DNA of 64,000 bases from a virus (IMGVR_UViG_2675903433_000022), one strand, 5' to 3'. Positions 5,849-61,263 are shown, counted from the first letter of the stretch. The notes: generated by a model from the sequence alone, not told the origin. Made by a program: numbers and translations.

Positions 5849-5868
5849 ATAAGTAAGTGATTACTTAG
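5849..5868. promoter_or_regulatory. palindromic motif site ATAAGTAAGTGATTACTTAG
   Basis: TAAGTAA / TTACTTA inverted arms in divergent region between helicase and ParB-like operon. Confidence 0.4.
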
Positions 5869-6566
5869 TGGATTGTAGCAATAAAATGGATGTAAAAATC
5901 ACGATTTTGCAGGTTGATGTTGCCAACCTTCGCCCGAATACCTGGAACACCAATTCGGTTGGTGCGCAGAATTTTGAAAAACTGAAAGGTTCTATCGAAA
6001 AATTGGGCTTTTTTAAGCCAATTTTGGCTCGTGAACTTGAAGATGGATTTTTTGAAATCCTCGGCGGCGAACATCGCTGGCGTGCTGCTATTGAGCAAGG
6101 AATTTCAACGGTTCCGGTGCTTTCTGTGGGCAAAATTAGCGATGTCGTAGCTAAACAGATGTCACTGGTGGACAACGAGCGATACGGTGAAGACGACCAA
6201 ATCGCATTGCAACGCTTCATTGAAGAAATTCAGTCAGAACTTGACTATCAACTGTCTGAAATCGCCCCGTATGACGACGAAATCTCGATGGTTTTAGCAA
6301 AAGAGGCGGCAATCGACCTTGAAGCACTGGAGGCGTTGTCTCGTGGTAGTGATGAGCCTGTCGATACCGACAAACGAGAGAAAACCGAACGTGTGGGGGC
6401 GGAACATCAGACCATGCGCTTCAAAGTAACTTTCGATGCGTCAGATCGTGTTGCAGAAACCATAAAAAACATCATCAAAGAGCAGGCTATTAACACCGGT
6501 AATGAAATGGAGAACGCTGGTGAGGCTCTGGTGTGGCTGGTCGACTACTACAAGGAGCGTATGTAA
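5868..6566 (+). CDS. ParB/Srx-like N-terminal domain protein
   Basis: ParB box GGEHRWRAA; acidic C-terminal half; true start may be ATG at 5886. Confidence 0.65.
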   Translation: MDCSNKMDVKITILQVDVANLRPNTWNTNSVGAQNFEKLKGSIEKLGFFKPILARELEDGFFEILGGEHRWRAAIEQGISTVPVLSVGKISDVVAKQMSLVDNERYGEDDQIALQRFIEEIQSELDYQLSEIAPYDDEISMVLAKEAAIDLEALEALSRGSDEPVDTDKREKTERVGAEHQTMRFKVTFDASDRVAETIKNIIKEQAINTGNEMENAGEALVWLVDYYKERM

Positions 6567-7234
6567 TGACCAAAAAGTTTGAAATCGTATATCGCGACCC
6601 GGCAGATCTTATTCCCTATGAGATGAATGCCAAAAAGCATGATGAACAGCAGATCCGAGATCTGGCCGCAGCCATTAAAAAGCGCGGATTTGACCAGCCA
6701 ATTACGGTCGATAAGAACGACGTAATTATTACTGGCCACGGCCGCCGTGAGGCTGCAATTTTTGCTGGACTTGAGCGCGTGCCGGTTATTGTTCGCGATG
6801 ATCTCAGTGATGACGAGGTTCGTGCGAAGCGCCTTGAAGATAACCGACTTGCCAGCATTGATTACGATGCAATTAAGCTACAGAAAGAGCTTGAGTCGCT
6901 TGTTCTGGACGATATCGAGGTTTTCGGCTTTGAAGAGCGTGAGTTGAATGTTCTCGTTGGCAGTATGACAGAAGAAATGGACACCGACTCGCTAGTTATC
7001 GATCTTGGCGAAGAAACTAAACGACAGAAGGATGAACACACCGAGATCAGTCGCGAAGTTGCAGCGGAAGAAGTACGTGTTGTCGACGTATTGGGCTTTA
7101 AAACGCTTCCTGCTGGCTCTGCCATTGTTGTTGGTGATTTGCTTGCCCACATGGAAGAAATGACGGGAGAGAGCGGGGTAGACGCATTTGTGGCATATGC
7201 GGAGAAGATCTCTTCCGGGGAGATGGCTGCATGA
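6566..7234 (+). CDS. ParB/Srx-like N-terminal domain protein (second copy)
   Basis: ParB box GHGRREAA; start overlaps previous stop (TAATG). Confidence 0.65.
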   Translation: MTKKFEIVYRDPADLIPYEMNAKKHDEQQIRDLAAAIKKRGFDQPITVDKNDVIITGHGRREAAIFAGLERVPVIVRDDLSDDEVRAKRLEDNRLASIDYDAIKLQKELESLVLDDIEVFGFEERELNVLVGSMTEEMDTDSLVIDLGEETKRQKDEHTEISREVAAEEVRVVDVLGFKTLPAGSAIVVGDLLAHMEEMTGESGVDAFVAYAEKISSGEMAA

Positions 7235-7896
7235 GCAAATACATCATCAACGTATCGTTTCAGACTCGCGTAAATAAAACCACGCGCACATTGGAAATCG
7301 CTGAGTCGTTCGGGCTTGGCCTGGACGAAAAAGAGTGGACGCTTTACGACAATCTGGAGCTGGAAGTGAAGCAGGGCGATGTGGTGTACATCACCGGCCA
7401 ATCCGGTTCCGGCAAATCCGTTGTGCTGCGCGAGTTGCAACGACAGATGAAGGATGAAGGGCTGTCTGTAGCCTCCATCGATGATTTTACCTTCGATAAT
7501 GAGGTTAACGTCATCGATCAGTTGGGCAAAACGACCAGTGATGCGCTTGGGTTGTTATCTATGGCTGGTCTGAACGATGCATATCTGTTTGTTCGCAAGC
7601 CTTCTGAAATGTCAGACGGCCAGAAATATCGTCTCAAGATTGCCAAACTGATTGAGTCAGGCGCTAAAGTGTGGGCTGCTGACGAGTTCGGCGCTGTTCT
7701 CGACCGTGTAACCGCTCAGGTTGTGGCGTCTAACCTCCAGCGTGCCGCTCGAAAGGTTGGTGCGACGGTAATGGTGGCGACGACTCACGAAGACCTGAAG
7801 AACGCGCTGCGCCCGGATATGCAGATCACCAAGCACTACAAAGAACGCGTGAAGGTGGAATATCACAATGGTAGTCATGATGAGGTCCATTCATGA
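7231..7896 (+). CDS. ABC-type ATPase domain protein (221 aa)
   Basis: Walker A GQSGSGKS, signature-like SDGQKYR, Walker B VWAADEFGA, H-loop TTHED; ATGA overlap with upstream gene. Confidence 0.6.
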   Translation: MSKYIINVSFQTRVNKTTRTLEIAESFGLGLDEKEWTLYDNLELEVKQGDVVYITGQSGSGKSVVLRELQRQMKDEGLSVASIDDFTFDNEVNVIDQLGKTTSDALGLLSMAGLNDAYLFVRKPSEMSDGQKYRLKIAKLIESGAKVWAADEFGAVLDRVTAQVVASNLQRAARKVGATVMVATTHEDLKNALRPDMQITKHYKERVKVEYHNGSHDEVHS

Positions 7897-8783
7897 CGGA
7901 CATCATCATTAAACGCTACCGCCCTGAAGAGTTTCCGCGTCATCTGGACTTTCTGGAGCGAATGACTGTTACAAAGGGAACTGTAGAGGACTGGCACGCT
8001 CTTAAGTCGCTTCACTACAAAACAGACGGCAAACCTTTCGCGCCAACTTACTATCGCTGCGAACTTGATGACCGTCTGGTGGGCGTCGTGGTTATGGCTT
8101 ACCCGAAACTACTGTTGGCACCTCGCCACCGCATGTTTCCTAAGTTGAAACCAACCACTAATACCACCGTGGCTAACCAGTACTGGGGTCGGTACGTGAA
8201 TAACAACTTTGCGGTGATCAGTCGCTCAGTTGTGGATACTCAGTATCGTGGCGTAGGCGTCTCTTATCGAATGATTAACCTGGTTAGCAGGATGCATGAC
8301 CGGCCAATCATTGAGATCCAGTCCTCGATGAGCAAATACAATCCCTTCGCCATGAAAGCAGGGTTTAAGTTCATCCGCCCTGAGCGACCGAAGAGCTATG
8401 AAAGTGCACTGCGTGTATTCCAGCGCCATTTCCGTTCCGACCCGGGTGATAACGAGGCGATCGTCAAAGAGTTGTTCGCAATGAGCGAGTCTCGTCGTCG
8501 CCGTGCACTGCGTGATCTGGTGGCGGACTACCACAAGAACAGTTCCCTGGCAAAAGCTGGGCGGAATCGTGGCACTACGATTCAGGACATTGCCGACAGT
8601 CTGGTGGACGAGGCCAGCATTGTGAAGCTGCTCAAGGACATTCACAACCTGAGCTTTACGTCTCCGTTGTATGGTGTGTACCGAAACCCTGACTTTGGCC
8701 GTCGACTGCCTGACACGCTGCCACTGCTGGCATTCGACAAACAACCTTTGGATAAACCGTTAGAAATTGCTTTACCGGCATAA
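7893..8783 (+). CDS. GNAT-fold acetyltransferase-like protein with C-terminal extension
   Basis: Motif resembling acetyl-CoA binding (VVDTQYRGVGVSYRM) and NPFAMKAGFKFI; ATGA overlap with upstream gene. Confidence 0.4.
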   Translation: MTDIIIKRYRPEEFPRHLDFLERMTVTKGTVEDWHALKSLHYKTDGKPFAPTYYRCELDDRLVGVVVMAYPKLLLAPRHRMFPKLKPTTNTTVANQYWGRYVNNNFAVISRSVVDTQYRGVGVSYRMINLVSRMHDRPIIEIQSSMSKYNPFAMKAGFKFIRPERPKSYESALRVFQRHFRSDPGDNEAIVKELFAMSESRRRRALRDLVADYHKNSSLAKAGRNRGTTIQDIADSLVDEASIVKLLKDIHNLSFTSPLYGVYRNPDFGRRLPDTLPLLAFDKQPLDKPLEIALPA

Positions 8784-8792
8784 GGATTTGCC

Positions 8793-9059
8793 ATGACGTT
8801 AACCGACAAACAAAAGGACATCATCAAAACGCTCAATCTCGGTTATGAGCGAGGTCATCTACTTGATCTGGACGAATTGCTTGAAGTTTTGCCGTACAAG
8901 ACAACCAAGCAAAGTATCCAGTTCTCAATTCGCGCTCTGATAAAAAAGGGGCTGGTGGAGAAAGGGCATACGCGCCAACGCAGTGACAATCGCTATCACC
9001 GCCGGACTCTTGGGTTAACCACTTTAGGTCGAGCCAAAGCGAAGTTACTGGTGATGTAA
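8793..9059 (+). CDS. small basic protein, possible winged-helix (88 aa)
   Basis: ORF track; 9 bp after previous gene; basic C-terminus. Confidence 0.35.
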   Translation: MTLTDKQKDIIKTLNLGYERGHLLDLDELLEVLPYKTTKQSIQFSIRALIKKGLVEKGHTRQRSDNRYHRRTLGLTTLGRAKAKLLVM

Positions 9060-9083: not shown

Positions 9084-9138
9084 CCTGCTTCTGTATATAT
9101 AAATAATAAGTAACTTATTAAATATATACGGAAGCAGG
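9084..9138. repeat. 55-bp near-perfect palindrome, copy 1
   Basis: CCTGCTTCTGTATATATAAATAATAAGT | AACTTATTAAATATATACGGAAGCAGG; a second copy at 42132..42186 is its reverse complement. Confidence 0.8.
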
Positions 9139-9887: not shown

Positions 9888-11143
9888 TGGCAATCCCGTC
9901 CTCGCTCAGTCTTGTGCAACTGCATTCTGGACAGATGAAAGTCTTCCAGTCTCCGCATCGATTTAAAGTTGTTTGTGCTGGTCGACGCTGGGGAAAATCC
10001 CGGTTGTCGATCTCCACTATTATTCGTGCGGCGGCAAAGGAAAAAAAGCAAAGAGTCTGGTATGTCGCTCCTACTTACCAGATGGCTCGCCAGATTTTGT
10101 GGGACGATCTACAGGAAGTTCTGCCTCGTAAGTGGGTTAGGAAAAAGAACGACACCACGATGACAATCGTGTTGAAGAACGGTTCGGAGATCGCCCTCAA
10201 AGGTGCTGATAAGCCTGACACTCTGCGCGGCGTAGCGTTGCATTTTGTAGTGCTTGATGAATTTCAGGATATGAAGGCTGACACCTGGTACAAGGTGTTA
10301 CGACCTACTCTTTCATCGACACGCGGCGGTGCACTGATCATTGGTACGCCAAAAGGCTTCTCGGAATTTCACAAACTGTGGACTATAGGCCAGAACGTAG
10401 AGCTGCAAAGAAAGGGACAGTGGAAGAGCTGGCAGTTTGTAACTGCCGATTCTCCGTTTGTACCTACGGCGGAAATTGAAGCTGCTAAGAATGATATGGA
10501 CCCGAAATCGTTCGCTCAGGAGTACCTGGCGAGCTTTGAGAACATGTCCGGGCGCGTTTACTACCCGTTCGATCGTAACGTGCATGTAAAACCGCTTCAG
10601 TTCAACCCTCGGTTGCCTATATGGGTAGGGCAGGACTTCAACATTGACCCGATGTCTTCAGTAATTTTGCAACCTCAGCCAAATGGTGAGCTATGGGCAA
10701 TTGATGAATTGGTGCTCTTTTCCTCTAACACGGCAGAGGTTTGTGATGAGCTTGAGAGACGCTTCTGGCGCTGGAAATCACAGATAACGGTATTTCCAGA
10801 TCCGGCAGGTGCTTATCGCCAACATGCTCGCGGGGAGTCTGACGTCGACATATTCAAAGAGAAGGGATTCTTACGTGTCGATTATTCGAAAAAGCACCCG
10901 CCAATTGCGGATCGTGTTAATGCTGTTAACCGAATGCTGATGACCGCATCTGGAGATATCCGGTTGTATATCGATCCGAAGTGCAAGCATTTGATTGATT
11001 CACTGGAAAAAGTCATCTACAAGCCTGGAACACGAGATATGGATAAGACAGGTGGCATTGAGCATAGTGCAGACGCATTGGGCTATCCAGTACATCGTAG
11101 GTATCCAGTCAAAAACCGTGTTATTCTTGGTGGTTCTCGATAG
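9887..11143 (+). CDS. terminase large subunit
   Basis: Walker A AGRRWGKS near N-terminus; 418 aa; followed by portal-sized gene. Confidence 0.75.
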   Translation: MAIPSSLSLVQLHSGQMKVFQSPHRFKVVCAGRRWGKSRLSISTIIRAAAKEKKQRVWYVAPTYQMARQILWDDLQEVLPRKWVRKKNDTTMTIVLKNGSEIALKGADKPDTLRGVALHFVVLDEFQDMKADTWYKVLRPTLSSTRGGALIIGTPKGFSEFHKLWTIGQNVELQRKGQWKSWQFVTADSPFVPTAEIEAAKNDMDPKSFAQEYLASFENMSGRVYYPFDRNVHVKPLQFNPRLPIWVGQDFNIDPMSSVILQPQPNGELWAIDELVLFSSNTAEVCDELERRFWRWKSQITVFPDPAGAYRQHARGESDVDIFKEKGFLRVDYSKKHPPIADRVNAVNRMLMTASGDIRLYIDPKCKHLIDSLEKVIYKPGTRDMDKTGGIEHSADALGYPVHRRYPVKNRVILGGSR

Positions 11144-11156
11144 GTAAGTAATTATC
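11139..11156. promoter_or_regulatory. palindromic motif site GATAGGTAAGTAATTATC
   Basis: Upstream of portal gene start. Confidence 0.35.
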
Positions 11157-11169
11157 TAAGGTTATTCAA

Positions 11170-12744
11170 ATGGAATTGAACGACAAACAAATTAAGGATC
11201 TGGTGGCGCGACGCCACCCGGAATACGAAAAGAAAAAAGAACATTGGGACTTCCTCGCCAGCACTTACGCTGGCGGGCGTGGTTGGTTTACAGACAATAT
11301 CTTTCGTTACTTTAAAGAGGGAGATCAGGAGTTTAAGGAGCGAGTTGAGCGTGCTTATCGCTTCAACCACACTCGTGAGGTGGTAAACCTCATCAACAAA
11401 TATCTCTTTAAAGAAGACATTCATAGAAATATCGAAGAGGCACCAGAGCAGATCCGCAATTTCTGGAAACGTGCGACTCGCCAGAATGCCTCTATTGACT
11501 CATTTATGGCCGCTATTGATTTGCAGTCGTCTATTTACGGTCGCATATGGGTTGTTGTCGATAGCACGATGAGTGGTGATGTTGAGTCAGTAGCTGACGA
11601 GAAAAAGAAAGATGCTCGCGCCTACGCCTACTGGATTTCACCTCAGCAAATGCTGGATGTGGCATGGGACGACGACGGGAATATGTTGTGGGCGTTAATT
11701 GTGGAAGTCGCTCGTGATGACGCAGATCCTTTTACTTCTACAGGTCAGGAATACCAACGTTATCGTCTGTGGACACAAAACGAGTGGTATCTGTTCCGTG
11801 AGGAAGTGAAGAAGGGCGCTGGTGGAGCAGGTCGCCGTCAGGCAAAAGTTATTTTAGAGGATAGCGGTGAGCATAATCTCGGCGTAGTTCCTGTGTTTCC
11901 TGTTGATTGTATTGGAGAAAGTGAATCACCGTATTTCAGCCCATCGTTGATCGATGATATCGCTTATCTTGATCGTGCGGTTGCAAACTATCTGTCAAAC
12001 CTTGATGCCATTATTCAGGATCAGACATTTAGCCAGTTGGCTATACCGGTACAGTCGCTTTTACCTGGTGATGAAAACCACACTAAAGTGCTTGAAATGG
12101 GCACAAAGCGAGTCTTCACCTACGATTCTGAAGGTGGAAACCAGCCGTTTTATCTGTCACCAGACCCGAAACAAGCTCAGATGATCATCACTACGATTAA
12201 GACGGTGATTAACGAAATCTACCATTCAGTTGGTGTAGCTGGTGAGCGAACGAAGCAGGACAACGCACAGGGAATCGATAACTCATCTGGTGCCGCAAAA
12301 ATGTATGACTTCCAGCGTGTAAATAGCTTGCTTGTCACAAAAGCAGAGCGTCTGGAAAGGGCTGAACGCCAAATCATGCTACTGGTTGCGAAATGGATGG
12401 GGGTAGATCTGGACGAAGACCACTCTTTAATTGCGTATCCAGAAAGTTTCGATATTCGTGGCCTTACAGATGAATTTTCTGTTGCCGAGAAACTGTCATT
12501 ACTTCAGGCACCGGACTCTGTACGTCGTCACCAGATGGAAATGCTTATTGAGAAGATTTTCCCGAACATTACTGAGGCGATGAAAAAGGAATTTGATAAA
12601 GATCTCTTGAATTTTCCGCCAAAAAATGATCTAAATACCCTTGAAAATAAGTCAGTACTTACTTATGATCGTGGTACAGCCCAAGAAAGCGGGCAAGATC
12701 AACCCCGAGGGAATGGGGACTCATCTACTCAAGAGAACGAGTGA
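11170..12744 (+). CDS. putative portal protein (524 aa)
   Basis: Size and position directly after terminase large subunit. Confidence 0.6.
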   Translation: MELNDKQIKDLVARRHPEYEKKKEHWDFLASTYAGGRGWFTDNIFRYFKEGDQEFKERVERAYRFNHTREVVNLINKYLFKEDIHRNIEEAPEQIRNFWKRATRQNASIDSFMAAIDLQSSIYGRIWVVVDSTMSGDVESVADEKKKDARAYAYWISPQQMLDVAWDDDGNMLWALIVEVARDDADPFTSTGQEYQRYRLWTQNEWYLFREEVKKGAGGAGRRQAKVILEDSGEHNLGVVPVFPVDCIGESESPYFSPSLIDDIAYLDRAVANYLSNLDAIIQDQTFSQLAIPVQSLLPGDENHTKVLEMGTKRVFTYDSEGGNQPFYLSPDPKQAQMIITTIKTVINEIYHSVGVAGERTKQDNAQGIDNSSGAAKMYDFQRVNSLLVTKAERLERAERQIMLLVAKWMGVDLDEDHSLIAYPESFDIRGLTDEFSVAEKLSLLQAPDSVRRHQMEMLIEKIFPNITEAMKKEFDKDLLNFPPKNDLNTLENKSVLTYDRGTAQESGQDQPRGNGDSSTQENE

Positions 12745-12752
12745 TAAGTAAC
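12743..12752. promoter_or_regulatory. motif half-site GATAAGTAAC
   Basis: 14 bp upstream of scaffold gene start. Confidence 0.25.
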
Positions 12753-12765
12753 AAAGGGAATTTTT

Positions 12766-14564: not shown

Positions 14565-14580
14565 AGATAGGTAGTTATCT
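14565..14580. promoter_or_regulatory. palindromic motif site AGATAGGTAGTTATCT
   Basis: Between capsid gene and decoration gene. Confidence 0.3.
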
Positions 14581-14586
14581 ATGTTA

Positions 14587-18133: not shown

Positions 18134-18141
18134 CTCAATTA

Positions 18142-18157
18142 GTAAGTATATACTTAC
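18142..18157. promoter_or_regulatory. perfect 16-bp palindrome GTAAGTATATACTTAC
   Basis: Upstream of major tail protein gene. Confidence 0.4.
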
Positions 18158-24623: not shown

Positions 24624-24648
24624 GATAAGTAAGTACTAATTTACTATC
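24624..24648. promoter_or_regulatory. palindromic motif site GATAAGTAAGTACTAATTTACTATC
   Basis: Between M-like and L-like genes. Confidence 0.35.
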
Positions 24649-31537: not shown

Positions 31538-31558
31538 ATAAGTAGGTAATTACTTAAT
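31538..31558. promoter_or_regulatory. palindromic motif site ATAAGTAGGTAATTACTTAAT
   Basis: About 45 bp upstream of tail fibre gene. Confidence 0.4.
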
Positions 31559-37183: not shown

Positions 37184-37202
37184 TAAGTAAGTACATACCT
37201 AC
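37182..37202. promoter_or_regulatory. motif site GATAAGTAAGTACATACCTAC
   Basis: Upstream of lysis-region genes. Confidence 0.35.
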
Positions 37203-42269: not shown

Positions 42270-42290
42270 GATAAGTAAGTAACTACCTAC
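42270..42290. promoter_or_regulatory. motif site GATAAGTAAGTAACTACCTAC
   Basis: Just upstream of replication-module gene 42294..43043; near-identical to site at 37182. Confidence 0.4.
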
Positions 42291-45704: not shown

Positions 45705-45724
45705 ATAAGTAGATGATTACTTAT
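45705..45724. promoter_or_regulatory. palindromic motif site ATAAGTAGATGATTACTTAT
   Basis: Upstream of gene 45766. Confidence 0.4.
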
Positions 45725-49226: not shown

Positions 49227-49250
49227 TGATAAGTATTTACTTACTTATCA
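49227..49250. promoter_or_regulatory. palindromic motif site TGATAAGTATTTACTTACTTATCA
   Basis: Strongly palindromic; at start of the 780-bp non-coding region before the tRNAs. Confidence 0.4.
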
Positions 49251-50639: not shown

Positions 50640-50681
50640 CAACTGAAAGAGTCAAGTCTACGAACTTTGTAGGAAGAAATA

Positions 50682-51274: not shown

Positions 51275-51280
51275 TTTTAA

Positions 51281-51484: not shown

Positions 51485-52588
51485 ATGAAAAATAGCTTTG
51501 ACAGAGCACGCGCTGCGGAGAACACCTCAAAAGAGGCGATTGAGTATCTCGAAAGAGCATCTCAAATGCAGGCCGTTATGATCTCGCAGGTTAGCAATGA
51601 CATGAGATTCTCGGACGCATTCATGTTATTCACTCGCTTATCTCTGCTGATAACCAGACGTCGGCCAGAGATCGCTGTTCATTGTATTTTGATACATGTT
51701 TTGCCGCACATTGCCGATGTAAAAGTAAGTGATATTAATAGGTTCATGGTGAACCAACTGGTCAACCCACTAATACTGGATGGCAAAATTGTTATGGGCC
51801 GCCGCGTTTTCTCTCTGATGAAGCAGTTCCTTAGCTGGTGCGCCTTCCAGGGGATGATCGACGTGTCACCGTTAAACGATATGTCACTTAACAAAGTTGC
51901 CGGTGGCGCAAAGCCCACACCTCGCGAGCGGAAGCTAACCGACGCAGAGGTATGGGTGTTCTGGAATATATGGGACTACTTCAATGTGTGTGCTGGTACA
52001 AAATGGGCGGCCAGGCTATGTCTTGTATCCGCAAGACGACCTGACGAAGTACTGCGGGCTAAAAAAAGTGAGTTCAATCTTAAGCGTGGGGTTTGGAATC
52101 AAGGCAAGAGGAACAAATCTGCCCGTGAGCATTCTCTGCCTTTAAGCTCATTAATGCGCACATGTATTGAAGAGTTGTTCGAATATGGTAAAGACAGCCA
52201 GTGGCTCGTGCCTTCGAATAAAAAAATCGGGAAAGACCTTCCTATGTCTAAAGTGGCAATAGCCCAGGCATTACGTCGTATTCTGGAACGACCAGAACTG
52301 ATGGAGCTTGAGCCATTTACACCCCGAGATTTGCGCCGTACTGCGCGTAGTTACTTCCCAGCATTAGGCATAAGCCAGGAGGTATCACGTAAAATCATGA
52401 ACCACAGTCTTGAGGGGATAGATCGGGTCTACGACCGGCACGATTATATGGACGAGATGCGAGACGCCTTAGAAAGTTTCTCGACGTACATCGCATCAAT
52501 CGTAGAGCAACCGGATTTAGACGAAATTGACCACAAATTTAAGGGAGATCGTCTATCAACAGAGCTTATTCGTGTAAATTTTTCATAG
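51485..52588 (+). CDS. int: tyrosine recombinase / integrase
   Basis: C-terminal catalytic residues in RDLRRTARS ... HSLEGIDRVYDRHDY context (R, H, R, Y). Confidence 0.75.
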   Translation: MKNSFDRARAAENTSKEAIEYLERASQMQAVMISQVSNDMRFSDAFMLFTRLSLLITRRRPEIAVHCILIHVLPHIADVKVSDINRFMVNQLVNPLILDGKIVMGRRVFSLMKQFLSWCAFQGMIDVSPLNDMSLNKVAGGAKPTPRERKLTDAEVWVFWNIWDYFNVCAGTKWAARLCLVSARRPDEVLRAKKSEFNLKRGVWNQGKRNKSAREHSLPLSSLMRTCIEELFEYGKDSQWLVPSNKKIGKDLPMSKVAIAQALRRILERPELMELEPFTPRDLRRTARSYFPALGISQEVSRKIMNHSLEGIDRVYDRHDYMDEMRDALESFSTYIASIVEQPDLDEIDHKFKGDRLSTELIRVNFS

Positions 52589-52969
52589 AGACTTTATGGC
52601 CTCAACAACCTTTTGTGATGCGCCTTTCTCTTTACCGAATCGCTCGTTATATGCAGCAAGAACCTGTTTTTCGTCCTCGTTAAGAGGAGCAGTGCCTTCT
52701 TTGTATAAAAATGCTGCGAGCTCGGGTTGGCGTTCTTCCAGCACCATCATCATAAGACGACTTGGCTCAATACCCAGTGCCAGCGCCAGCGGACGAACCT
52801 TATCGATAGGCAAAGGAATTTTGCCGCTTTTAATTAAAGAAAGGTTGTTGGCGTTTTTATACCCAATTGTTTTGGCTATCTGGGCCTGGCTCATAGGTGA
52901 GGATTCAATCAACCCTGCGATAAAAGCAGCGTAGCGACTTTCTATAAATTCAATCTTGTTATCAGACAT
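52583..52969 (-). CDS. XRE-family HTH transcriptional repressor (cI-like)
   Basis: HTH MSQAQIAKTIGYKNANNLSLIKSG; divergent from small gene at 53221. Confidence 0.65.
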   Translation of the reverse strand: MSDNKIEFIESRYAAFIAGLIESSPMSQAQIAKTIGYKNANNLSLIKSGKIPLPIDKVRPLALALGIEPSRLMMMVLEERQPELAAFLYKEGTAPLNEDEKQVLAAYNERFGKEKGASQKVVEAIKSL

Positions 52970-53000
52970 GGTTACAACCTTTGCGCGTTCAATTCTCTCT

Positions 53001-53014
53001 GGTAAGTGCTTACC
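53001..53014. promoter_or_regulatory. palindrome GGTAAGTGCTTACC in repressor divergent region (candidate operator)
   Basis: Located 32 bp upstream of repressor start; shares GTAAGT/ACTTAC arms with the recurrent motif. Confidence 0.4.
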
Positions 53015-53220
53015 GATATTACATCAAAGGTTAGGGTTGTAAAGCTATTATCATTTTTTTCGATAGGCACTTAAAAGACCGGTTAAAGGCCATTGCACGG
53101 AGAAAAATTAGCCCAAAACAGGTAAGAAAATTAACTTGCATGTGATATGAATGTATTCAGTATTGATACAAATTTTAGTAGTATTCCTTACCATAGTATA
53201 AGTTAGAATGGATTGATTGA

Positions 53221-53433
53221 ATGAACACCACTATTTCCAGCCTAATCGCTCTTGAGATCGGACACGTACAGAAATTAGCTGATGAGTGTGTAGCTGACAT
53301 CCTCACCGATCTACCGAATGAGCAGATTCAGGTTGGTGTGAATGACACAACTGGTTTTATATTCGAACTTAACAACAAACGCTTCACGCTTCTCAATACC
53401 GGCTCCGGGTCTTTAGCCGTCAGAATCTGTTAA
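53221..53433 (+). CDS. small protein divergent from repressor (Cro-position)
   Basis: Position only. Confidence 0.3.
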   Translation: MNTTISSLIALEIGHVQKLADECVADILTDLPNEQIQVGVNDTTGFIFELNNKRFTLLNTGSGSLAVRIC

Positions 53434-53531: not shown

Positions 53532-55640
53532 ATGTCTAAAAAACGTTCCATCAAAGAGGTTCAGGACTTCCGTGACAGTGTAAAACGAGTAGTCGCTCTC
53601 CTTTCAGGTAAAAACATCCCTGTTGCAGAACGAGGGGACGACGCTTATGTACGCTATAACGATGATGGAGAGCCAATTCTCGTAAACATCCCATCAATCC
53701 CGGATAACGCAACACCGGCATTGATGAATGCTGTGCGCGGATTTCTCGATCATGAGGTTGCTCACATTTTGTTTACCGATATTCGTGTGTCCAACAAAAT
53801 GAGAGAAAAAGGACGCGTTCCTTCCTGGTCGCTATGGAATGCCTTAGAAGACGTGTTCATCGAGCGAAAAATGGGTCAGGTCTTTAACGGAACAAGACGT
53901 AATCTGATGGCAACTCAGCGCCTTATTATCGAAAAAGTCTTTAAACCAAAGGCTTCAGAGGCTATTGCTTATTGTGGCAAAGATCAGCGCGCGCTTTTTC
54001 TAAACTTCTTTCTCTGTCCGGTTGTAAGAGCCTGGGATGGCCAAGCACCGTTCGTAGATTTCATGGATGAATATTGGCCTGTCATTGAGAAACCAATTTC
54101 ATTATTAAAAGAACATGGTATCGATGTGGCCGTGCGTAACATGTCTTGCACCGAGGATTGTGTAAAGGTGGCTGCGACCATAGCTAAGATCCTCAAAGAC
54201 ACTGAAAGTGAAAGCAAAGGTAAGGAGTCAGCTCCGGGAAAAACTTCCGATCCTTCAGACGCTGACCAGACGGATTCCTCTGGAGAAAACAATGAAGATA
54301 ACGAAGATCATGAGACACCCTCAGCGTTAGATAATCACAAATCTATCAAATCAGAATCACACAGTAAGCACAAACATGATAATAACGACAGTGATGATTC
54401 AGATAATTCTGAATCATCAGAAACAATATTCGATGATACAGAAAATGATAAAGAGGTATCAGATTCTGATGCTTCTGATAACGCGGTGTCAGAATCATTT
54501 ACCGCTGACCACGAAAAAAGAAAAACGACAGAAGACGGCTCTTCAGATATTCCAACTCCGTCAAAAATGAGTCTGGAAGAGGCTTTAGAGGAGCTGGATA
54601 GCATAGAAGATGAAGTCGGAGGCATGACAGAAGATGCTCTATCCGAAACGATTAAAAGCGAGTTAACAGAAAGCTCGAAAAGCGAATACAGGCCATACAA
54701 TCGCTCATACGACTTCATCGGCTCGATTGATCAGGCAGAAGCCCATATCAAACGGCTTATTAAAACATTCTCCGATATTGATTTAGGAGGATATCCAATC
54801 AGCCGCTATCGCATCGTTCCTGAAGGCAACCAGCTCTTCGACAAATATATTGAAAAGCATCTTTCGTCAGGTGTTTCGTCGACGCTGGCAAAAGACCTGG
54901 AGCGAGCAATAGCAAGCAGAAACAGAGTTCAGTTTATACCGGGCCAGCGTCGGGGGCGCATTCATGGTTCTAGTATCTACAGATTAGCAATGAATGATGA
55001 TCGCGTGTTTCGTAAAAAAGAAGAATCTAAAGCCGTTAACGCCTGTGTTCAACAAGTGATTGATTTATCAGGTTCAATGAGTGGTATAACGATACAATTG
55101 GCTCTTGCAAGTGCATATACCATCGCCGATGCCCTTGATCGAATAAATGTTCCCAACATTATCACCGGCTTCACTACATTTGGTAGTCATATGGCGGCAG
55201 GAGAACTTAAGGCTGTCAAGTATGAGTTCTCTCGCTTTGAATCTTTAATGCTACCTATCATCAAAAATTGGAATGAAAAGGTAAATTCTCGCGAAGTTCG
55301 CTCACGTATGGGGTGCGTAGGCTACACATTCCCACTTCTTAATAATGTGGATGGTGAAAGCATAGCCAGCCTTGCATCGTTGTTTTCCGGTCGCATGGAG
55401 GACAGGAAGATCATGCTTGTTCTGAGTGATGGCGCGCCGTGGGCTGTTGGGAGAGGTTTTGACGCTCATTTGCGTTCGGTTGCGAAGCAAATTGAAACGC
55501 AGACTGACATTGATTTGATGGCAATTGGCATCATGACTGACGCACCGGAGAGATTTTACTCAAATCATGCCCTGGTAACGAGCGTTGATAGTCTTGGTTC
55601 ATCTGTAGTTACTGAACTATCTCGTATCATTTTAAAGTGA
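53532..55640 (+). CDS. vWA-domain protein (CobT-like) with long acidic Ser/Asp-rich linker
   Basis: C-terminal MIDAS-like DLSGSMSG; central low-complexity acidic region. Confidence 0.6.
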   Translation: MSKKRSIKEVQDFRDSVKRVVALLSGKNIPVAERGDDAYVRYNDDGEPILVNIPSIPDNATPALMNAVRGFLDHEVAHILFTDIRVSNKMREKGRVPSWSLWNALEDVFIERKMGQVFNGTRRNLMATQRLIIEKVFKPKASEAIAYCGKDQRALFLNFFLCPVVRAWDGQAPFVDFMDEYWPVIEKPISLLKEHGIDVAVRNMSCTEDCVKVAATIAKILKDTESESKGKESAPGKTSDPSDADQTDSSGENNEDNEDHETPSALDNHKSIKSESHSKHKHDNNDSDDSDNSESSETIFDDTENDKEVSDSDASDNAVSESFTADHEKRKTTEDGSSDIPTPSKMSLEEALEELDSIEDEVGGMTEDALSETIKSELTESSKSEYRPYNRSYDFIGSIDQAEAHIKRLIKTFSDIDLGGYPISRYRIVPEGNQLFDKYIEKHLSSGVSSTLAKDLERAIASRNRVQFIPGQRRGRIHGSSIYRLAMNDDRVFRKKEESKAVNACVQQVIDLSGSMSGITIQLALASAYTIADALDRINVPNIITGFTTFGSHMAAGELKAVKYEFSRFESLMLPIIKNWNEKVNSREVRSRMGCVGYTFPLLNNVDGESIASLASLFSGRMEDRKIMLVLSDGAPWAVGRGFDAHLRSVAKQIETQTDIDLMAIGIMTDAPERFYSNHALVTSVDSLGSSVVTELSRIILK

Positions 55641-55655
55641 ACAAAACAGCCTTAA

Positions 55656-55678
55656 CGATAAGTAACCACTTACGATAG
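55656..55678. promoter_or_regulatory. motif site CGATAAGTAACCACTTACGATAG
   Basis: Upstream of AAA+ ATPase gene. Confidence 0.35.
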
Positions 55679-55735
55679 TTAATGATATATTTATATAAGA
55701 AGTTGAACGCTCATTAGAAAACAAAGGAAAAACGC

Positions 55736-56971
55736 ATGACTACTACTGCACTGCAAAATGAAAAAAATCCTTCTGATTACCTTGTTTGCAAGTGGTGCGG
55801 AAAATCATTTCACTATTTTAAGTCCCATGTAGCCAATGGTAATTGCGAGGGCATTCCTGAGTCAGTAAAAGATGCCGATCCTGACACCGTACTGAAAATG
55901 TACACAACACAGTTTCCAGATGAGCCAACGCTATCGAAAAAGGCACTTGATGCAATTCAAGCTAAACGTGCCGAGCAAAAAAGCGAAATGGCCAAATCAT
56001 CTGGCGTGACCAGTAGCCCAGGCTACACAGGCACAGTTGAGTACAAGACAGATCTGGTCGCAGCTCACGAACTGCTAAATGTAACAGTGGAAGAACTCGG
56101 AACAAAACGTGGGACGCCGCTCATGGTTAGCGTCAACGTCAATACGCCGTATCCAGAGTTCGTTCCCGAAGTGAAGAAAGGCTACGTATATGGCGACTTC
56201 GAACTGATCAAGGATATTTTCATGATGCTTGAACTTGGCATACCTGGCTATTTGTGGGGTCATGCAGGAACAGGCAAATCGTCATTGCCTACACAACTAT
56301 GTGCTTTGCTCAATCGTCCGTTGATCCGTGCCCAACATACAGCATCAATGGAAGAGGCACATGTTACGGGGCAAATTCTGGCGCGTGATGGCTCTACGTA
56401 TTTCGAGCCTGGCTTGCTTGCGCTCGCAATGAAGCATGGCTGGGTTTACCTCGCGGATGAATACGACTTTGCGTTTCCACAAATTCTTGGCGTGTATCAG
56501 CCAGTGCTGGAAGGTGAAGCGTTAGTCATCAAAGAGGCGACTCCAGAATGGCGTCGCATTACTCCGCATGAACGGTTTGCTTTCATTGGCACTGGCAACA
56601 CGAACGGATCTGGTGATGAAACCGGCTTGTACCAGGGTACAAACATCCAGAACGCCGCGAACTTTTCGCGTTTTGGCATCGTTTCGAATGTGAAATACAT
56701 GAGCAAAGAGGCAGAGATCAACATGTTGATAAATGCCGGTATCGTGGATGAATACGCAGAAAAGATGGTTAAGTTTGCCGATATCGTTCGCGATGGATAC
56801 GAAGAACACCTTATCAGTCAGCCAATTGGCCCTCGTGAACTTTTGTTGTCGGCCAAGATTGGAATGATGCGAGGCGACTTTGTGACAGGTATTGAGCGTT
56901 CTTTCATTAACAAACTCCCTTCAGCTTCTGCACAAGCGGCTCGTGAAGTTGTTCAAAAAATATTTGGTTGA
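55736..56971 (+). CDS. AAA+ ATPase (MoxR/CobS-like)
   Basis: Walker A GHAGTGKSS, Walker B-like VYLADEYD; N-terminal Cys/His cluster CKWCGK ... H. Confidence 0.65.
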   Translation: MTTTALQNEKNPSDYLVCKWCGKSFHYFKSHVANGNCEGIPESVKDADPDTVLKMYTTQFPDEPTLSKKALDAIQAKRAEQKSEMAKSSGVTSSPGYTGTVEYKTDLVAAHELLNVTVEELGTKRGTPLMVSVNVNTPYPEFVPEVKKGYVYGDFELIKDIFMMLELGIPGYLWGHAGTGKSSLPTQLCALLNRPLIRAQHTASMEEAHVTGQILARDGSTYFEPGLLALAMKHGWVYLADEYDFAFPQILGVYQPVLEGEALVIKEATPEWRRITPHERFAFIGTGNTNGSGDETGLYQGTNIQNAANFSRFGIVSNVKYMSKEAEINMLINAGIVDEYAEKMVKFADIVRDGYEEHLISQPIGPRELLLSAKIGMMRGDFVTGIERSFINKLPSASAQAAREVVQKIFG

Positions 56972-60670: not shown

Positions 60671-60677
60671 TCCAATA

Positions 60678-60707
60678 AACATGGCCTCTATGGCCATGTT
60701 TTCTCTT
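60678..60707 (+). terminator. rho-independent terminator
   Basis: AACATGGCC-tcta-TGGCCATGTT followed by TTCTCTT. Confidence 0.6.
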
Positions 60708-60796
60708 ATCCCCTCATATCCCCTATCCTCGAACTCCTTGCCTCATCATTACAATGATATAATCAATACAAAATGATAAGTGATAAGGAAATGTGC

Positions 60797-61228
60797 ATGA
60801 TCGCCGATATTTACGAGAAAATAATGTCTGATCTCGAGTTTGACCGAGACAATCTGGAAGAAGTCTGGCGTAGACAACCCCGCCTGTTGATGGAATATGG
60901 CTCAAAACTCGCCCATGCAGAAAGAAGTGTCGCAGAAGCAAAACTTAACCTTGAAGCTGTTGAAGCAAAGCTATACGACACAGAGCGTAAGAACTTGAGT
61001 ATGAACGGCATTAAGTTCAACGAATCTGTACTGGACGCTAAGGTTAAAACAAACCCACAGTATCTGTCTAAACGGCAGAAGTTGGATGAAGCACGGCACA
61101 TCGCAGACATATACAAACATGCTGTCGCCGCCTTTTCGCATCGCCGAGACATGATCGTTCAGGCGTCAAAGATGGCCATCGTTGAATTAGAGCGATTAGG
61201 CTCTGAACGCTTTATTACTCCCCGTTGA
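60797..61228 (+). CDS. hypothetical protein, possibly a UvsY-like recombination mediator
   Basis: Start chosen at third Met after AAGGAA RBS; predicted helical 143-aa protein next to SSB gene; UvsY resemblance is weak. Confidence 0.3.
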   Translation: MIADIYEKIMSDLEFDRDNLEEVWRRQPRLLMEYGSKLAHAERSVAEAKLNLEAVEAKLYDTERKNLSMNGIKFNESVLDAKVKTNPQYLSKRQKLDEARHIADIYKHAVAAFSHRRDMIVQASKMAIVELERLGSERFITPR

Positions 61229-61232
61229 TTTT

Positions 61233-61263
61233 TGATAGATAATAAGTAAGTACTGATCTATCA
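61233..61263. promoter_or_regulatory. palindromic motif site TGATAGAT-AATAAGTAAGTACT-GATCTATCA
   Basis: Upstream of SSB gene. Confidence 0.4.

What the first reader, a model, noticed from the sequence alone, without database searches (positions are those of the whole stretch)
5849..61263. Recurrent palindromic motif (GATAAGTAAGTA / TAAGTA-N-TACTTA) upstream of at least 15 operons
A related palindromic sequence recurs in intergenic DNA in front of gene or operon starts across the whole element: 5849, 11139, 12743, 14565, 18142 (perfect 16-bp GTAAGTATATACTTAC), 24624, 31538, 37182, 42270, 45705, 46583, 49227, 55656, 60775, 61233, plus the operator-like GGTAAGTGCTTACC at 53001 next to the XRE repressor. 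It also forms the centre of the two 55-bp palindromes. The dyad symmetry and promoter-proximal placement suggest binding sites for one dimeric regulator (element-wide repressor or activator), or a phage-specific promoter class, or RNA processing sites. I counted these by eye, so the list is probably incomplete.
Basis: seen in the sequence. Interest (0 to 1): 0.65.

Follow-up and report, generated by a model that had tools for sequence, protein, structure and literature searches.

The report
Dispersed operator sites of a phage-plasmid repressor
An 18-base mirror-symmetric DNA word occurs 14 times in this window, almost always in the short gaps between genes of an SSU5-like phage-plasmid, and most likely is where one phage-encoded repressor binds to keep about 25 gene blocks silent while the phage lives as a plasmid.

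Summary
It is an 18-bp dyad, TA(A/G)GTAAG-NN-CTTAC(C/T)TA.

- **Frequency:** 12 matches in the window against 0.25 in shuffles. After merging there are 14 sites, 13 of them in the 6.7% of sequence that is non-coding (p=8e-15).
13 of the 16 coordinates are true dyads. 12743, 46583 and 60775 are half-sites only, and one dyad (12648) was missed.
- **The element:** an E. coli SSU5-like phage-plasmid, 97% identical to phage Cyrano. Cyrano and SSU5 carry 26-27 dyads each.
- **Conservation:** distant relatives keep about the same number. Sinorhizobium has the same word; Aeromonas (TCAGTAAAT|..TTACTGA) and Acinetobacter (TCAGTCAGT|ACTGACTGA) have variants changed identically in both half-sites. This points to a co-evolving phage-encoded dimer, not a host factor or an RNA hairpin.
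- **Promoter context:** host-type -10 elements abut or overlap the dyads in the direction of transcription.
- **Expression:** in published Cyrano RNA-seq, gene boundaries with a dyad show a step down when uninduced and an induction step up (p=0.0003).
- **Best candidate binder:** the XRE repressor at 52583-52969. It is a core gene, is expressed in lysogens, has a dyad over its own promoter, and its recognition helix covaries with dyad type.

Binding itself is untested. This is a new member of a known kind (P1 C1-like dispersed operators).

The parts
5850..5867 (.). Dyad TAAGTAAGTGATTACTTA in the 82-bp divergent region between the UvsW-like helicase operon (-) and the ParB-like operon (+). A perfect TATAAT (also TATAAT on the other strand) abuts its left end.
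   Evidence: A dyad directly upstream of the ParB-like gene is conserved in SSU5, Acinetobacter, Sinorhizobium and loci L035/L036/L068.
11141..11158 (.). Dyad TAGGTAAGTAATTATCTA between the TerL stop codon (overlapping it) and the portal start codon.
   Evidence: Orthologous dyads: SSU5 2032, Cyrano 2021.
12648..12665 (.). Dyad TAAGTCAGTACTTACTTA inside the 3' end of the portal gene. It fills the 17-bp spacer of the best sigma70-like promoter in the region (TTGAAA-17-TATGAT, 12641-12669).
   Evidence: In Cyrano the downstream genes CYRAN_4 and CYRAN_5 are induced.
14568..14581 (.). Short (14-bp) dyad TAGGTAGTTATCTA after the major capsid gene, followed by an intrinsic terminator-like hairpin (14586-14610).
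   Evidence: 18-bp forms occur in Cyrano (5444) and SSU5 (5472). The same stop-dyad-terminator order follows the capsid gene in Acinetobacter (79716) and Sinorhizobium (83966).
18139..18156 (.). Dyad TTAGTAAGTATATACTTA (inner 16 bp perfect) in front of the tail protein gene. A predicted promoter, TTACCA-17-TAGAAT (18154-18182), overlaps its right end.
   Evidence: The orthologous Cyrano boundary CYRAN_11/12 shows a +4.1 log2 induction step.
24626..24643 (.). Dyad TAAGTAAGTACTAATTTA between minor tail genes, followed by a 10-bp-stem hairpin (24654-24676).
31539..31556. Dyad TAAGTAGGTAATTACTTA between the tail J-like gene and the tail fibre gene, followed by a GC hairpin. In SSU5 the hairpin stem is kept although its sequence differs (read by eye, not tested statistically).
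37184..37201 (.). Dyad TAAGTAAGTACATACCTA in front of the holin/lysis genes.
   Evidence: SSU5 has the perfect dyad TAGGTAAGCGCTTACCTA at the same place.
42272..42289 (.). Dyad TAAGTAAGTAACTACCTA 13 nt upstream of the start of the gene that precedes DnaB helicase. The Shine-Dalgarno sequence lies between the dyad and the ATG.
   Evidence: In Cyrano, expression drops 6-7.7 log2 across this boundary (CYRAN_30/31).
45706..45723 (.). Dyad TAAGTAGATGATTACTTA after the primase gene. TAAAAT abuts it on the left and an extended -10-like ctgTGAGAAT lies downstream.
   Evidence: The Cyrano boundary CYRAN_33/34 steps up 1.9-3.4 log2 in all conditions.
49230..49247 (.). Dyad TAAGTATTTACTTACTTA (extended palindrome TGATAAGTA..TACTTATCA) after the ligase operon and upstream of the tRNA cluster.
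52999..53016 (.). Variant dyad CTGGTAAGTGCTTACCGA (inner 14 bp perfect), 30 nt upstream of the XRE start codon.
   Evidence: A dyad just upstream of the XRE gene occurs in L094, L088, Acinetobacter, Aeromonas and Sinorhizobium.
53016..53043 (-). Predicted XRE promoter: -35 TTTACA (53043-53038), 16-bp spacer, -10 TAATAT (53021-53016). The dyad therefore spans the predicted transcription start, which would give negative autoregulation.
   Evidence: consensus scan only; the start site is not mapped.
52583..52969 (-). XRE-family HTH protein (128 aa), the proposed binder of the dyads and repressor of the plasmid state.
   Evidence: PHROG 8 'transcriptional regulator' E=1.3e-11. Pfam HTH_19 weak, below cut-off. 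AlphaFold N-terminal domain pLDDT 84-90, matching C-proteins, HigA, SinR and 434 repressor. About 96 in the table's normalised LB read counts in Cyrano lysogens. Core gene in all four lineages, absent only from SSU5. Recognition helix covaries with dyad type.
53221..53433 (+). 70-aa protein (PHROG 2627, function unknown) transcribed divergently from XRE. Possible Cro-like or antirepressor partner. Its orthologue is the most strongly induced + strand gene in Cyrano.
   Evidence: The role is inferred only.
55659..55672 (.). Short (14-bp) dyad TAAGTAACCACTTA between the CobT-like and CobS-like genes.
   Evidence: SSU5 has the 18-bp form TAAGTAATCACTTACTAT.
61243..61260 (.). Dyad TAAGTAAGTACTGATCTA between the UvsY-like and gp32-like SSB genes. 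GATAAT abuts it on the left and TATCAT overlaps its right end (the scan hit TAGATA-17-TATCAT, 61236-61264).

Best explanation
The dyads are DNA operators for one phage-encoded dimeric helix-turn-helix repressor, most likely the XRE-family protein at 52583-52969. While the element lives as a plasmid, the repressor is made (shown for the 100%-identical Cyrano protein). It is proposed to occupy about 25 dyads that overlap the core promoters or transcription starts of the lytic transcription units, which all run in one direction. This would keep replication, nucleotide-metabolism, lysis and virion genes silent, and would repress the repressor's own promoter. When the repressor is inactivated, the units fire together. 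Dyads with no adjacent promoter that sit in front of terminator hairpins may act as extra roadblocks to read-through.

**Shown:** the sites, their statistics, placement and deep conservation; covariation with lineage; and the association with steps in transcript level.

**Inferred:** the identity of the binder, the direction of regulation (repression), and the roadblock role.
For: 1. **Real, intergenic, element-wide.**
   - 12 hits against 0.25 in shuffles.
   - 13 of 14 sites are intergenic, p=8e-15.
   - 26-27 sites per genome in Cyrano and SSU5, with 20 hand-paired orthologous positions.

2. **A DNA site for a protein, not an RNA hairpin.** G-U-type and A-C-type arm mismatches are equal (44 against 42). 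No Rfam family lies at any dyad.

3. **Phage-encoded and co-evolving.**
   - The same word occurs in Alphaproteobacterial relatives: Sinorhizobium pLM21S1, 41 dyads, proteins only 26-58% identical.
   - Both arms are changed in parallel in Aeromonas (23-26 sites) and Acinetobacter (26 sites).

4. **Operator-like geometry with host-specific promoters.**
   - Window PparB: TATAAT abuts dyad 5850.
   - Window PXRE: TAATAT abuts dyad 52999.
   - Dyad 12648 fills the spacer of TTGAAA-17-TATGAT.
   - Sinorhizobium: 10 dyads are preceded by GCGCTATAA, 8 of them at exactly 2 nt.
   - Acinetobacter and Aeromonas: the right arm is replaced by TATACT or TATAAT in 7 and 4 sites, and never on the mirror side.

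5. **Expression** (Misson et al. 2023, PMC9928086, S1 Table).
   - Boundaries with a dyad step down when uninduced (B6: -0.89 against +0.36, p=0.003).
   - They show an induction step of +1.12 against -0.37 (p=0.0003).
   - XRE mRNA and its divergent neighbour rise together with the target genes, as expected for a negatively autoregulated repressor.

6. **Binder.**
   - XRE is one of only 37 protein families shared by all four lineages, and the only one missing from SSU5.
   - Its distribution tracks the portal gene nearly 1:1 by genus in enterobacterial plasmids.
   - Every lineage has a dyad at the XRE gene's own upstream region.
   - The start of its recognition helix is KN(A/Q)N in all TAAG-type lineages, KRPN in Acinetobacter, and AANQT in Aeromonas.
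   - The other conserved winged-helix protein (88 aa) does not covary with dyad type.
   - The ParB-like gene is silent in lysogens.
Against: - No binding experiment exists.
- SSU5 has no XRE gene yet keeps 27 dyads. This is explained only by assuming a recent deletion, or that the dyads are embedded in promoters that are still needed.
- Across 110 non-redundant sites no -10 or -35 lies at a fixed distance. About a third of the window's dyads have no convincing promoter next to them.
- Several dyads lie upstream of terminator hairpins, an odd place for a promoter operator.
- The covariation rests on only three dyad types and a handful of residues.
- Phage immunity repressors usually diversify. 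Here the word is unchanged between Alpha- and Gammaproteobacterial elements.
- The RNA-seq comes from a stress condition in macrophages, not a clean induction, and gives gene-level values without start sites.
- An RHH-like 92-aa protein (3963-4241) is also expressed in lysogens and has not been excluded for the enterobacterial lineage.
Confidence: 0.55

Rival explanations
1. The dyads are the activator-binding element of a phage-specific promoter class. A phage activator made on induction binds the dyad at about -20 and recruits host RNA polymerase to promoters that lack a -35, as Lpa does at P1 late promoters.
For: - P1 late promoters are AAGTnACTT + 4 nt + a -10 hexamer, which shares the AAGT/ACTT core with this dyad.
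- In Acinetobacter, Aeromonas and some window sites a -10 hexamer overlaps the right arm, placing the dyad centre near -19.
- Sigma70-like promoters are depleted in the element.
- Genes downstream of dyads are co-induced.
Against: - No Lpa homologue is found by tblastn or by a family HMM.
- In Sinorhizobium and at the window's PparB and PXRE, the -10 lies upstream of the dyad, so the dyad covers the predicted start site. An activator cannot work from there.
- Dyad 12648 sits in a promoter with good -35 and -10 hexamers that should not need an activator.
- The same site class precedes both early (replication) and late (virion) genes.
- The conserved regulator that covaries with the dyad is expressed while the targets are silent.
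Confidence: 0.15
2. The dyads act mainly as protein roadblocks or insulators, like 'stoperators'. The bound repressor stops elongating RNA polymerase at gene-block boundaries instead of blocking initiation.
For: - The dyads lie in very short intergenic gaps, often overlapping the upstream stop codon.
- Uninduced transcript levels step down across dyad boundaries. The CYRAN_30/31 boundary drops 6-7.7 log2.
- Several dyads have no adjacent promoter and precede terminator hairpins.
Against: - Many dyads overlap recognisable core promoter elements in a directional way.
- The step-downs are confounded by co-located hairpins or terminators, and at CYRAN_30/31 by the 55-bp palindrome.
- Symmetric sites carry no orientation, unlike mycobacteriophage stoperators (from my own knowledge of Brown et al. 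1997).
Confidence: 0.12
3. The dyads are loading or binding sites for the ParB-like proteins (5886-6566 and 6533-7234), as with KorB operators on RK2. They would serve partition or long-range silencing.
For: - A dyad always lies directly upstream of the ParB-like operon in every lineage.
- Both proteins have a ParB_N domain.
- KorB has 12 dispersed palindromic operators (from my own knowledge).
Against: - The ParB-like gene is at background level in lysogens, where silencing or partition would be needed (about 5 in the table's normalised read counts).
- The alignments show no evident HTH after the ParB_N domain.
- A separate small ParA locus lies elsewhere (40173-41200).
Confidence: 0.05
4. 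The palindromes act in RNA, as processing sites, stabilising hairpins or terminators at the ends of cistrons.
For: - They lie just after stop codons.
- All of them would be transcribed in the sense direction.
- Some precede terminators.
Against: - There is no bias towards G-U-compatible mismatches on the transcribed strand (44 against 42).
- Positions 4 and 17 of the 20-mer used (core positions 3 and 16) vary nearly independently.
- The stems are A/U-rich with no U-tract.
- One dyad lies upstream of a divergent promoter pair, and one lies at the - strand XRE promoter.
- No Rfam family is hit.
Confidence: 0.03
5. The dyads are bound by a host protein, for example the nucleoid-occlusion factor SlmA. 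Its site GTGAGTACTCAC (from memory) resembles the dyad centre GTAAGTACTTAC.
For: The central 12 bp resemble the SlmA site at 10 of 12 positions (recalled from memory, not tested).
Against: - The strongest conservation lies in the outer positions (TA.GTA / TAC.TA), not the centre.
- The identical word is kept in Rhizobiales elements, while Aeromonas and Acinetobacter elements differ.
- The variation follows the phage lineage and its XRE helix.
Confidence: 0.02

Closest known systems
Bacteriophage P1 C1 repressor with its dispersed operators (phage-plasmid)
   Same: - One repressor controls many operators scattered over a ~100-kb plasmid prophage, overlapping promoters of separate operons (P1 annotation).
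- Operator specificity is conserved across relatives.
- Anti-repressor genes are present (SSU5_093 is annotated Ant).
   Different: - C1 operators are annotated as 17-bp monovalent sites, asymmetric with consensus ATTGCTCTAATAAATTT (from my own knowledge). Here the site is an 18-bp dyad.
- No C1 homologue and no C1-operator-like sequence occurs in the window, and P1 has no such dyad.
- In P1, late genes use a separate activator (Lpa). Here one site class covers early and late modules.
Mycobacteriophage L5/Bxb1 gp71-type repressor 'stoperators' (from my own knowledge: Brown et al. 1997 EMBO J)
   Same: - About 25-35 repressor sites lie in short intergenic gaps throughout the genome, often touching stop or start codons.
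- They are associated with silencing of the whole prophage.
   Different: - Stoperators are 13-bp, asymmetric and orientation-dependent. These sites are symmetric.
- Many of these dyads overlap promoter -10 elements.
- The repressor family is different.
P1 Lpa-dependent late promoters
   Same: A short inverted repeat with an AAGT/ACTT core sits immediately upstream of a -10 hexamer, with no -35. A subset of dyads has this geometry.
   Different: - The P1 box is 9 bp and these dyads are 18 bp.
- There is no Lpa (PF25716) homologue.
- Other dyads lie downstream of the -10.
XRE/Cro-CI-type HTH regulators with dyad operators (434 repressor, C.AhdI/C.Esp1396I controller proteins, HigA, SinR)
   Same: - The predicted N-terminal five-helix HTH domain superposes on these proteins (TM-score normalised to target 0.65-0.77, rmsd 1.5-2.8 A over 60-68 residues for the best matches).
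- These proteins bind dyads as dimers, and a site over the regulator's own promoter is common.
   Different: - No sequence-level PDB relative is found.
- The C-terminal ~50 residues are a low-confidence helical region with no peptidase domain.
- The regulon has about 25 sites rather than 1-6.
RK2 KorB global regulon (from my own knowledge)
   Same: A palindromic operator is repeated about 12 times across a plasmid backbone, at varying distances from promoters.
   Different: - KorB is a ParB homologue that is expressed in the plasmid state.
- The ParB-like gene here is silent in lysogens and has no evident HTH.

Membership tests
XRE-type HTH repressor with dyad operators | The regulator has the five-helix HTH_XRE fold | tested here: met
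   PHROG 8 E=1.3e-11. Pfam HTH_19 E=7.8e-4, below the curated cut-off. The AlphaFold N-terminal domain has pLDDT 84-90 and matches C.AhdI, C.BclI, HigA, SinR and 434 repressor.
XRE-type HTH repressor with dyad operators | The operator is dyad-symmetric with independently evolving half-sites | tested here: met
   The 18-bp dyad logo comes from 110 non-redundant sites. Arm mismatches show no strand bias.
XRE-type HTH repressor with dyad operators | An operator lies at the regulator's own promoter (autoregulation) | tested here: met
   Dyad 52999-53016 abuts the predicted -10 of PXRE. A dyad lies upstream of the XRE gene in all lineages examined. This is sequence evidence only.
XRE-type HTH repressor with dyad operators | The protein physically binds the site and represses transcription | not testable with these tools
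   Needs EMSA or footprinting, ChIP-seq, and reporter or deletion experiments.
XRE-type HTH repressor with dyad operators | Recognition-helix residues covary with operator sequence across relatives | tested here: inconclusive
   The helix starts KN(A/Q)N with TAAGTAAG (Enterobacteria, Sinorhizobium, L086, L118), KRPN with TCAGTCAG (Acinetobacter) and AANQT with TCAGTAAA (Aeromonas). The direction is consistent, but there are only three operator types.
P1 C1-type dispersed-operator regulon | Many (>10) operators of one repressor are dispersed over the prophage | tested here: met
   14 sites in 64 kb, and 26-27 per full genome.
P1 C1-type dispersed-operator regulon | C1 homologue and asymmetric 17-bp operator | tested here: not met
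   tblastn with C1 finds nothing below E=2. No C1-operator-like sequence with <=3 mismatches occurs in the window (one chance 4-mismatch hit at 55134), and P1 has no dyads.
P1 Lpa late promoters | Lpa (PF25716) activator is encoded | tested here: not met
   tblastn and a family HMM find nothing significant in the window, Cyrano or SSU5.
P1 Lpa late promoters | A 9-bp box lies at a fixed 4 nt upstream of a -10 hexamer, with no -35 | tested here: not met
   No downstream hexamer is conserved at a fixed distance (information content <0.2 bits). The geometry varies, with the -10 upstream in some sites and overlapping the right arm in others.
Mycobacteriophage stoperators | Numerous repressor sites lie in short intergenic regions | tested here: met
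   13 of 14 sites are intergenic, at distances of -2 to 32 nt from the upstream stop codon.
Mycobacteriophage stoperators | Asymmetric sites oriented with transcription | tested here: not met
   The core is symmetric and its flanks are nearly so.
Mycobacteriophage stoperators | Bound repressor blocks elongation | tested here: inconclusive
   Uninduced transcript levels step down at dyad boundaries (p=0.003), but this is confounded by neighbouring hairpins.
KorB/ParB-type global regulon | A ParB-family protein is expressed in the plasmid state and binds the palindromes through an HTH | tested here: not met
   The ParB-like CYRAN_119 is at background (about 5 in the table's normalised read counts) in lysogens. 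The proteins have a ParB_N domain only, and no HTH is evident in the alignments.

The most novel reading that the evidence does not exclude
One small XRE repressor and a single 18-bp word may form a 'frozen' regulatory code shared by SSU5-like phage-plasmids across two classes of Proteobacteria. About 25-40 dyads per genome would work both as promoter operators and as elongation roadblocks, cutting a 100-kb one-directional genome into independently silenced, co-inducible units. The word could change only when both arms of all sites and the recognition helix change together, as seems to have happened in Aeromonas and Acinetobacter. A variant of this reading is that the dyads are instead read by an unidentified activator, defining a new promoter class.
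Probability: 0.2. Interest if true: 0.65.

Novelty: new member of a known kind. Interest (0 to 1): 0.5.

Why it matters
SSU5-like phage-plasmids are common in clinical Enterobacteriaceae, Yersinia pestis (pMT1) and Acinetobacter; about 970 plasmids in PLSDB carry the portal gene. Some of them carry resistance genes (titles and abstracts). How they stay silent as plasmids and how they switch to lytic growth is not described in the literature I could search. No paper held the motif, and the Cyrano and pLM21S1 papers do not mention it.

A defined operator word and a candidate master repressor give a directly testable model of the switch. They would allow prophage transcription units to be annotated from sequence alone. 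They predict cross-immunity between relatives, for example that XRE expressed in trans should block SSU5. The parallel change of both half-sites together with the recognition helix in three lineages is also a natural experiment on how a many-site regulon changes its specificity.

Tried and rejected
- **P1-like late promoter with an Lpa homologue.** I extracted the P1 late promoters and searched for Lpa by tblastn and a family HMM. There is no homologue.
- **Fixed-distance -10 or -35.** Logos of 47 and of 110 sites show nothing beyond the weakly palindromic A/T flanks.
- **RNA hairpin.** The G-U against A-C mismatch test is negative, and Rfam finds nothing at the dyads.
- **ParB-like proteins as binder.** They are silent in lysogens and have no evident HTH.
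- **88-aa winged-helix protein (8793-9059).** It is conserved in all lineages, but its recognition helix does not follow the dyad type.
- **RHH-like 92-aa protein (3963-4241).** It is expressed in lysogens, but no homologue was found at the same position in loci L035/L036 or by BLAST in Acinetobacter. It is not a core family. It is not excluded for enterobacteria.
- **Host SlmA.** Rejected on distribution.
- **Y/F at the first HTH position as a specificity determinant.** Rejected, because Sinorhizobium has F with the TAAG-type dyad.
- **Literature searches.** Searches for the motif sequence, for SSU5 regulation, and for pHCM2 or pLM21S1 repeats found no description. One 2026 preprint on an SSU5-like phage-plasmid promoter could not be opened.
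- **The repeat finder on the 55-bp palindromes.** It returned nothing because the arms differ by an indel. I confirmed them with a script.

Full report
**What the window is.**
The window is most of an SSU5-like phage-plasmid of E. coli.
- It is 94-98% identical to Escherichia phage Cyrano (pLF82) and CMS-2020a, and about 80% identical to Salmonella phage SSU5.
- PHROG hits identify the portal, DnaB-like helicase, primase, ligase, DnaE-type polymerase, CobT/CobS-like proteins, an integrase and an XRE regulator.
- Nearly all genes run on the + strand.
- I fetched the complete annotated genomes of SSU5 and Cyrano for comparison.

Yes.
TAAGTA occurs 44 times against 20.6.
- In an unbiased scan, ATAAGTAA is among the most over-represented 8-mers in the window, Cyrano and SSU5.
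- Aligning the instances shows that the unit is an 18-bp dyad, TA(A/G)GTAAG-NN-CTTAC(C/T)TA. Its ideal form is ATAAGTAAGT|ACTTACTTAT, and there is an occasional 14-bp form.
- With <=3 mismatches the dyad occurs 12, 26 and 23 times in the window, SSU5 and Cyrano. Shuffles give 0.25, 0.25 and 0.85.
- Merged, the window has 14 sites, SSU5 27 and Cyrano 26.
- Thirteen of the 14 window sites lie in the 6.7% of sequence that is non-coding (p=7.8e-15).
12743, 46583 and 60775 are half-sites or less. The dyad at 12648 in the portal gene was missed.
- The two ~55-bp palindromes are real, but their centre is a different, compact palindrome.

**DNA site or RNA structure?**
The evidence favours a DNA site.
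- In 47 Cyrano and SSU5 sites, arm mismatches that would be G-U pairs in the + strand transcript (44) are as frequent as those that would be A-C (42).
- The R/Y position varies almost independently in the two arms.
- No Rfam family lies at any dyad.
- A logo of 110 non-redundant, strand-oriented sites shows a symmetric core with weakly palindromic A/T flanks. Nothing is conserved at a fixed distance on either side.
- These features fit a dimeric DNA-binding protein. They do not fit a hairpin or a self-contained promoter.

**Related elements.**
- A scan of viral contigs for the dyad returned many SSU5-like contigs. It also returned loci with no nucleotide similarity but 25-57% protein identity that carry 3-7 dyads at the same intergenic positions. 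Those distant loci belong to Rhizobiales phage-plasmids.
- Sinorhizobium pLM21S1 (59% G+C) has 41 dyads of the identical word.
- An Acinetobacter baumannii relative has 26 sites whose consensus is TCAGTCAGT|ACTGACTGA. This emerged from an unbiased k-mer scan.
- An Aeromonas caviae relative (55% G+C) has 23-26 sites of TCAGTAAAT|..TTACTGA.
- In each lineage the change is mirrored in both arms, and the number of sites per genome is roughly kept.
- This argues strongly for a phage-encoded dimer that co-evolves with its sites. It argues against a host factor: the same word serves in Alpha- and Gammaproteobacteria, and SlmA was considered and rejected.

**Relation to promoters.**
Sigma70-like promoters are depleted in the window (13, 16 and 13 found against 21, 31 and 28 expected). 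However, 5 of the 19 + strand matches overlap dyads. Two geometries recur, both directional.
1. **A -10 immediately upstream, so the dyad covers the predicted start.**
   - The ParB-like operon: TATAAT abuts dyad 5850.
   - The XRE promoter: TTTACA-16-TAATAT abuts dyad 52999.
   - Ten Sinorhizobium dyads are preceded by GCGCTATAA, at exactly 2 nt in eight of them. That is 10 of only 25 such heptamers on that strand.
2. **A -10 overlapping the right arm.**
   - Window 12648: TTGAAA-17-TATGAT, with the dyad filling the spacer.
   - Window 49230 and 61243: TATCAT.
   - Seven Acinetobacter sites (TATACT and similar) and four Aeromonas sites (TATAAT and similar), with none on the mirror side.

Both positions are classic for repressor operators. 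The first is incompatible with an activator. Other dyads have no clear promoter and are followed by hairpins or terminators, for example after the capsid gene in all lineages.

**Expression evidence.**
I used the per-gene RNA-seq table for Cyrano in Misson et al. 2023 (PMC9928086, S1 Table).
- Most + strand genes are at background in the lysogen.
- In the table's normalised LB read counts, the XRE gene (CYRAN_45) is at about 96, while the ParB-like gene is at about 5.
- At boundaries between consecutive + strand genes, those with a dyad (n=21) show a step down in the uninduced condition B6 (mean -0.89 against +0.36 log2, p=0.003).
- The same boundaries show a step up in induction (macrophage 6 h minus medium 6 h) of +1.12 against -0.37 (p=0.0003). 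Against dyad-free gaps of >=40 bp the p-value is 0.005.
- The three largest induction steps at dyad boundaries are CYRAN_59/60, 55/56 and 11/12; the first two are also the largest of all boundaries.
- XRE mRNA and its divergent neighbour rise in the same conditions. This is expected if a negatively autoregulated repressor is being inactivated.

**Which protein binds?**
- No P1 Lpa or C1 homologue is present.
- Thirty-seven protein families are shared by the enterobacterial, Acinetobacter, Aeromonas and Sinorhizobium elements. Among them the plausible sequence-specific binders are the XRE protein, an 88-aa winged-helix protein, TerS and two ParB_N proteins.
- XRE is the only core family missing from SSU5. 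SSU5 lacks about 3.5 kb carrying int, XRE and orf70.
- In PLSDB, XRE tracks the portal gene almost 1:1 by genus in Enterobacteria and Yersinia.
- Every lineage has a dyad just upstream of its XRE gene.
- The start of the predicted recognition helix (residues 38-41; model) is KN(A/Q)N in all lineages with TAAGTAAG. These include Sinorhizobium and two loci only 29-36% identical overall. It is KRPN in Acinetobacter and AANQT in Aeromonas.
- The 88-aa protein shows the opposite pattern: its helix is nearly identical between lineages with different dyads, and different between lineages with the same dyad.
- The XRE model's N-terminal domain superposes on dimeric XRE-fold regulators: C-proteins, HigA, SinR and 434 repressor.

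**Caveats.**
- Binding is not shown.
- SSU5 keeps its dyads without XRE. I explain this by a recent deletion in a phage propagated lytically (its use as a biocontrol phage is from my own knowledge), and by the dyads being embedded in promoters that are still needed.
- The covariation rests on three operator types.
- About a third of the dyads lack a recognisable promoter.
- The RNA-seq condition is not a clean induction.
- An activator model and a roadblock-only model remain possible, and I rank them below the operator model.

**Comparison with known systems, and verdict.**
- Functionally, the closest analogue is the P1 C1 repressor with its many dispersed operators on another phage-plasmid, followed by mycobacteriophage stoperators.
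- The element is not a member of either family. It has no C1 homologue, and its site is symmetric rather than asymmetric.
- The protein belongs to the XRE/Cro-CI fold class.
- I found no description of this motif in the searchable literature.
- I rate it a new member of a known kind. It is of moderate interest because the family is clinically widespread, because the word is conserved across bacterial classes, and because the lineage-specific co-variation is unusually clean.

Noticed in passing
window 9085-9138 and 42131-42185: Two near-identical ~55-bp imperfect palindromes, CCTGCTTC(T/C)GTATATATAAATAATAAGTAACTTATTAAATATATAC(G/A)GAAGCAGG, inverted relative to each other. The first lies between the 88-aa winged-helix gene and terS. 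The second lies just upstream of dyad 42272. Their centre, AAGTAACTT, fits the P1 late-promoter box pattern AAGTnACTT. Function unknown; possibilities are pac or origin, a bidirectional terminator, or a second regulator's site.
   Followed up: partly
window 2943-3545 (-): A 200-aa protein with a full-length match to Pfam Flag1_repress (FljA, repressor of phase-1 flagellin), E=2.5e-84. It is conserved in SSU5 and Cyrano. This is an unexpected cargo gene for a phage-plasmid.
   Followed up: no
window 5001-64000: Sigma70-like promoter matches are clearly fewer than in dinucleotide shuffles in all three 20-kb scans (13/21.3, 16/31.1, 13/28.0). This suggests selection against spurious host promoters.
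   Followed up: no
window 49998-50461: A tRNA-Asn, tRNA-Thr and tRNA-Ser cluster, 91-94% identical to the tRNA region of phages P1, P7 and D6. This is a module shared between unrelated phage-plasmid families.
   Followed up: no
window 62747-64000 (-): An IS3-family insertion sequence at the right end of the window. An ALIL frameshift pseudoknot lies at 63563-63679 (120 bits), between two overlapping - strand ORFs.
   Followed up: no
L133 (Sinorhizobium pLM21S1) 6449-7090, and dyads at 12417-52927: The Rhizobiales relative encodes a sigma factor between the CobS-like ATPase and DnaE; the enterobacterial elements have only a 69-aa ORF there. Ten of its dyads are preceded by a conserved GCnCTCC-N~17-GCGCTATAA-N2 motif. 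This may be a promoter class read by that phage sigma factor, with the dyad acting as its operator.
   Followed up: partly
window 3963-4241 (-): A 92-aa protein whose sequence looks like a ribbon-helix-helix DNA binder (PHROG 1466, function unknown). It lies downstream of the UvsW-like helicase, in the operon that starts at dyad 5850. Its Cyrano orthologue is expressed in lysogens (about 114 in the table's normalised read counts).
   Followed up: partly
window 12743-12754, 46583-46594, 60775-60786: Isolated left half-sites (GATAAGTAAC, GATAGGTAAGTA, GATAAGTGATAAGG) directly in front of start codons. The first two are conserved in Cyrano and SSU5. They could be decayed dyads or monomer sites.
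   Followed up: partly
L001 (SSU5) 42525-42761 against window ~50000-53532: SSU5 lacks the ~3.5-kb block carrying the integrase, XRE and the 70-aa gene. That block is present in essentially all plasmid-borne relatives. This is consistent with SSU5 being a repressor-less lytic derivative.
   Followed up: partly
window 53532-56971, and all four lineages: A CobT-like (vWA) and CobS/MoxR-like AAA ATPase pair always lies immediately downstream of the XRE locus in enterobacterial, Acinetobacter, Aeromonas and Sinorhizobium elements. Its function in these phages is unknown.
   Followed up: no
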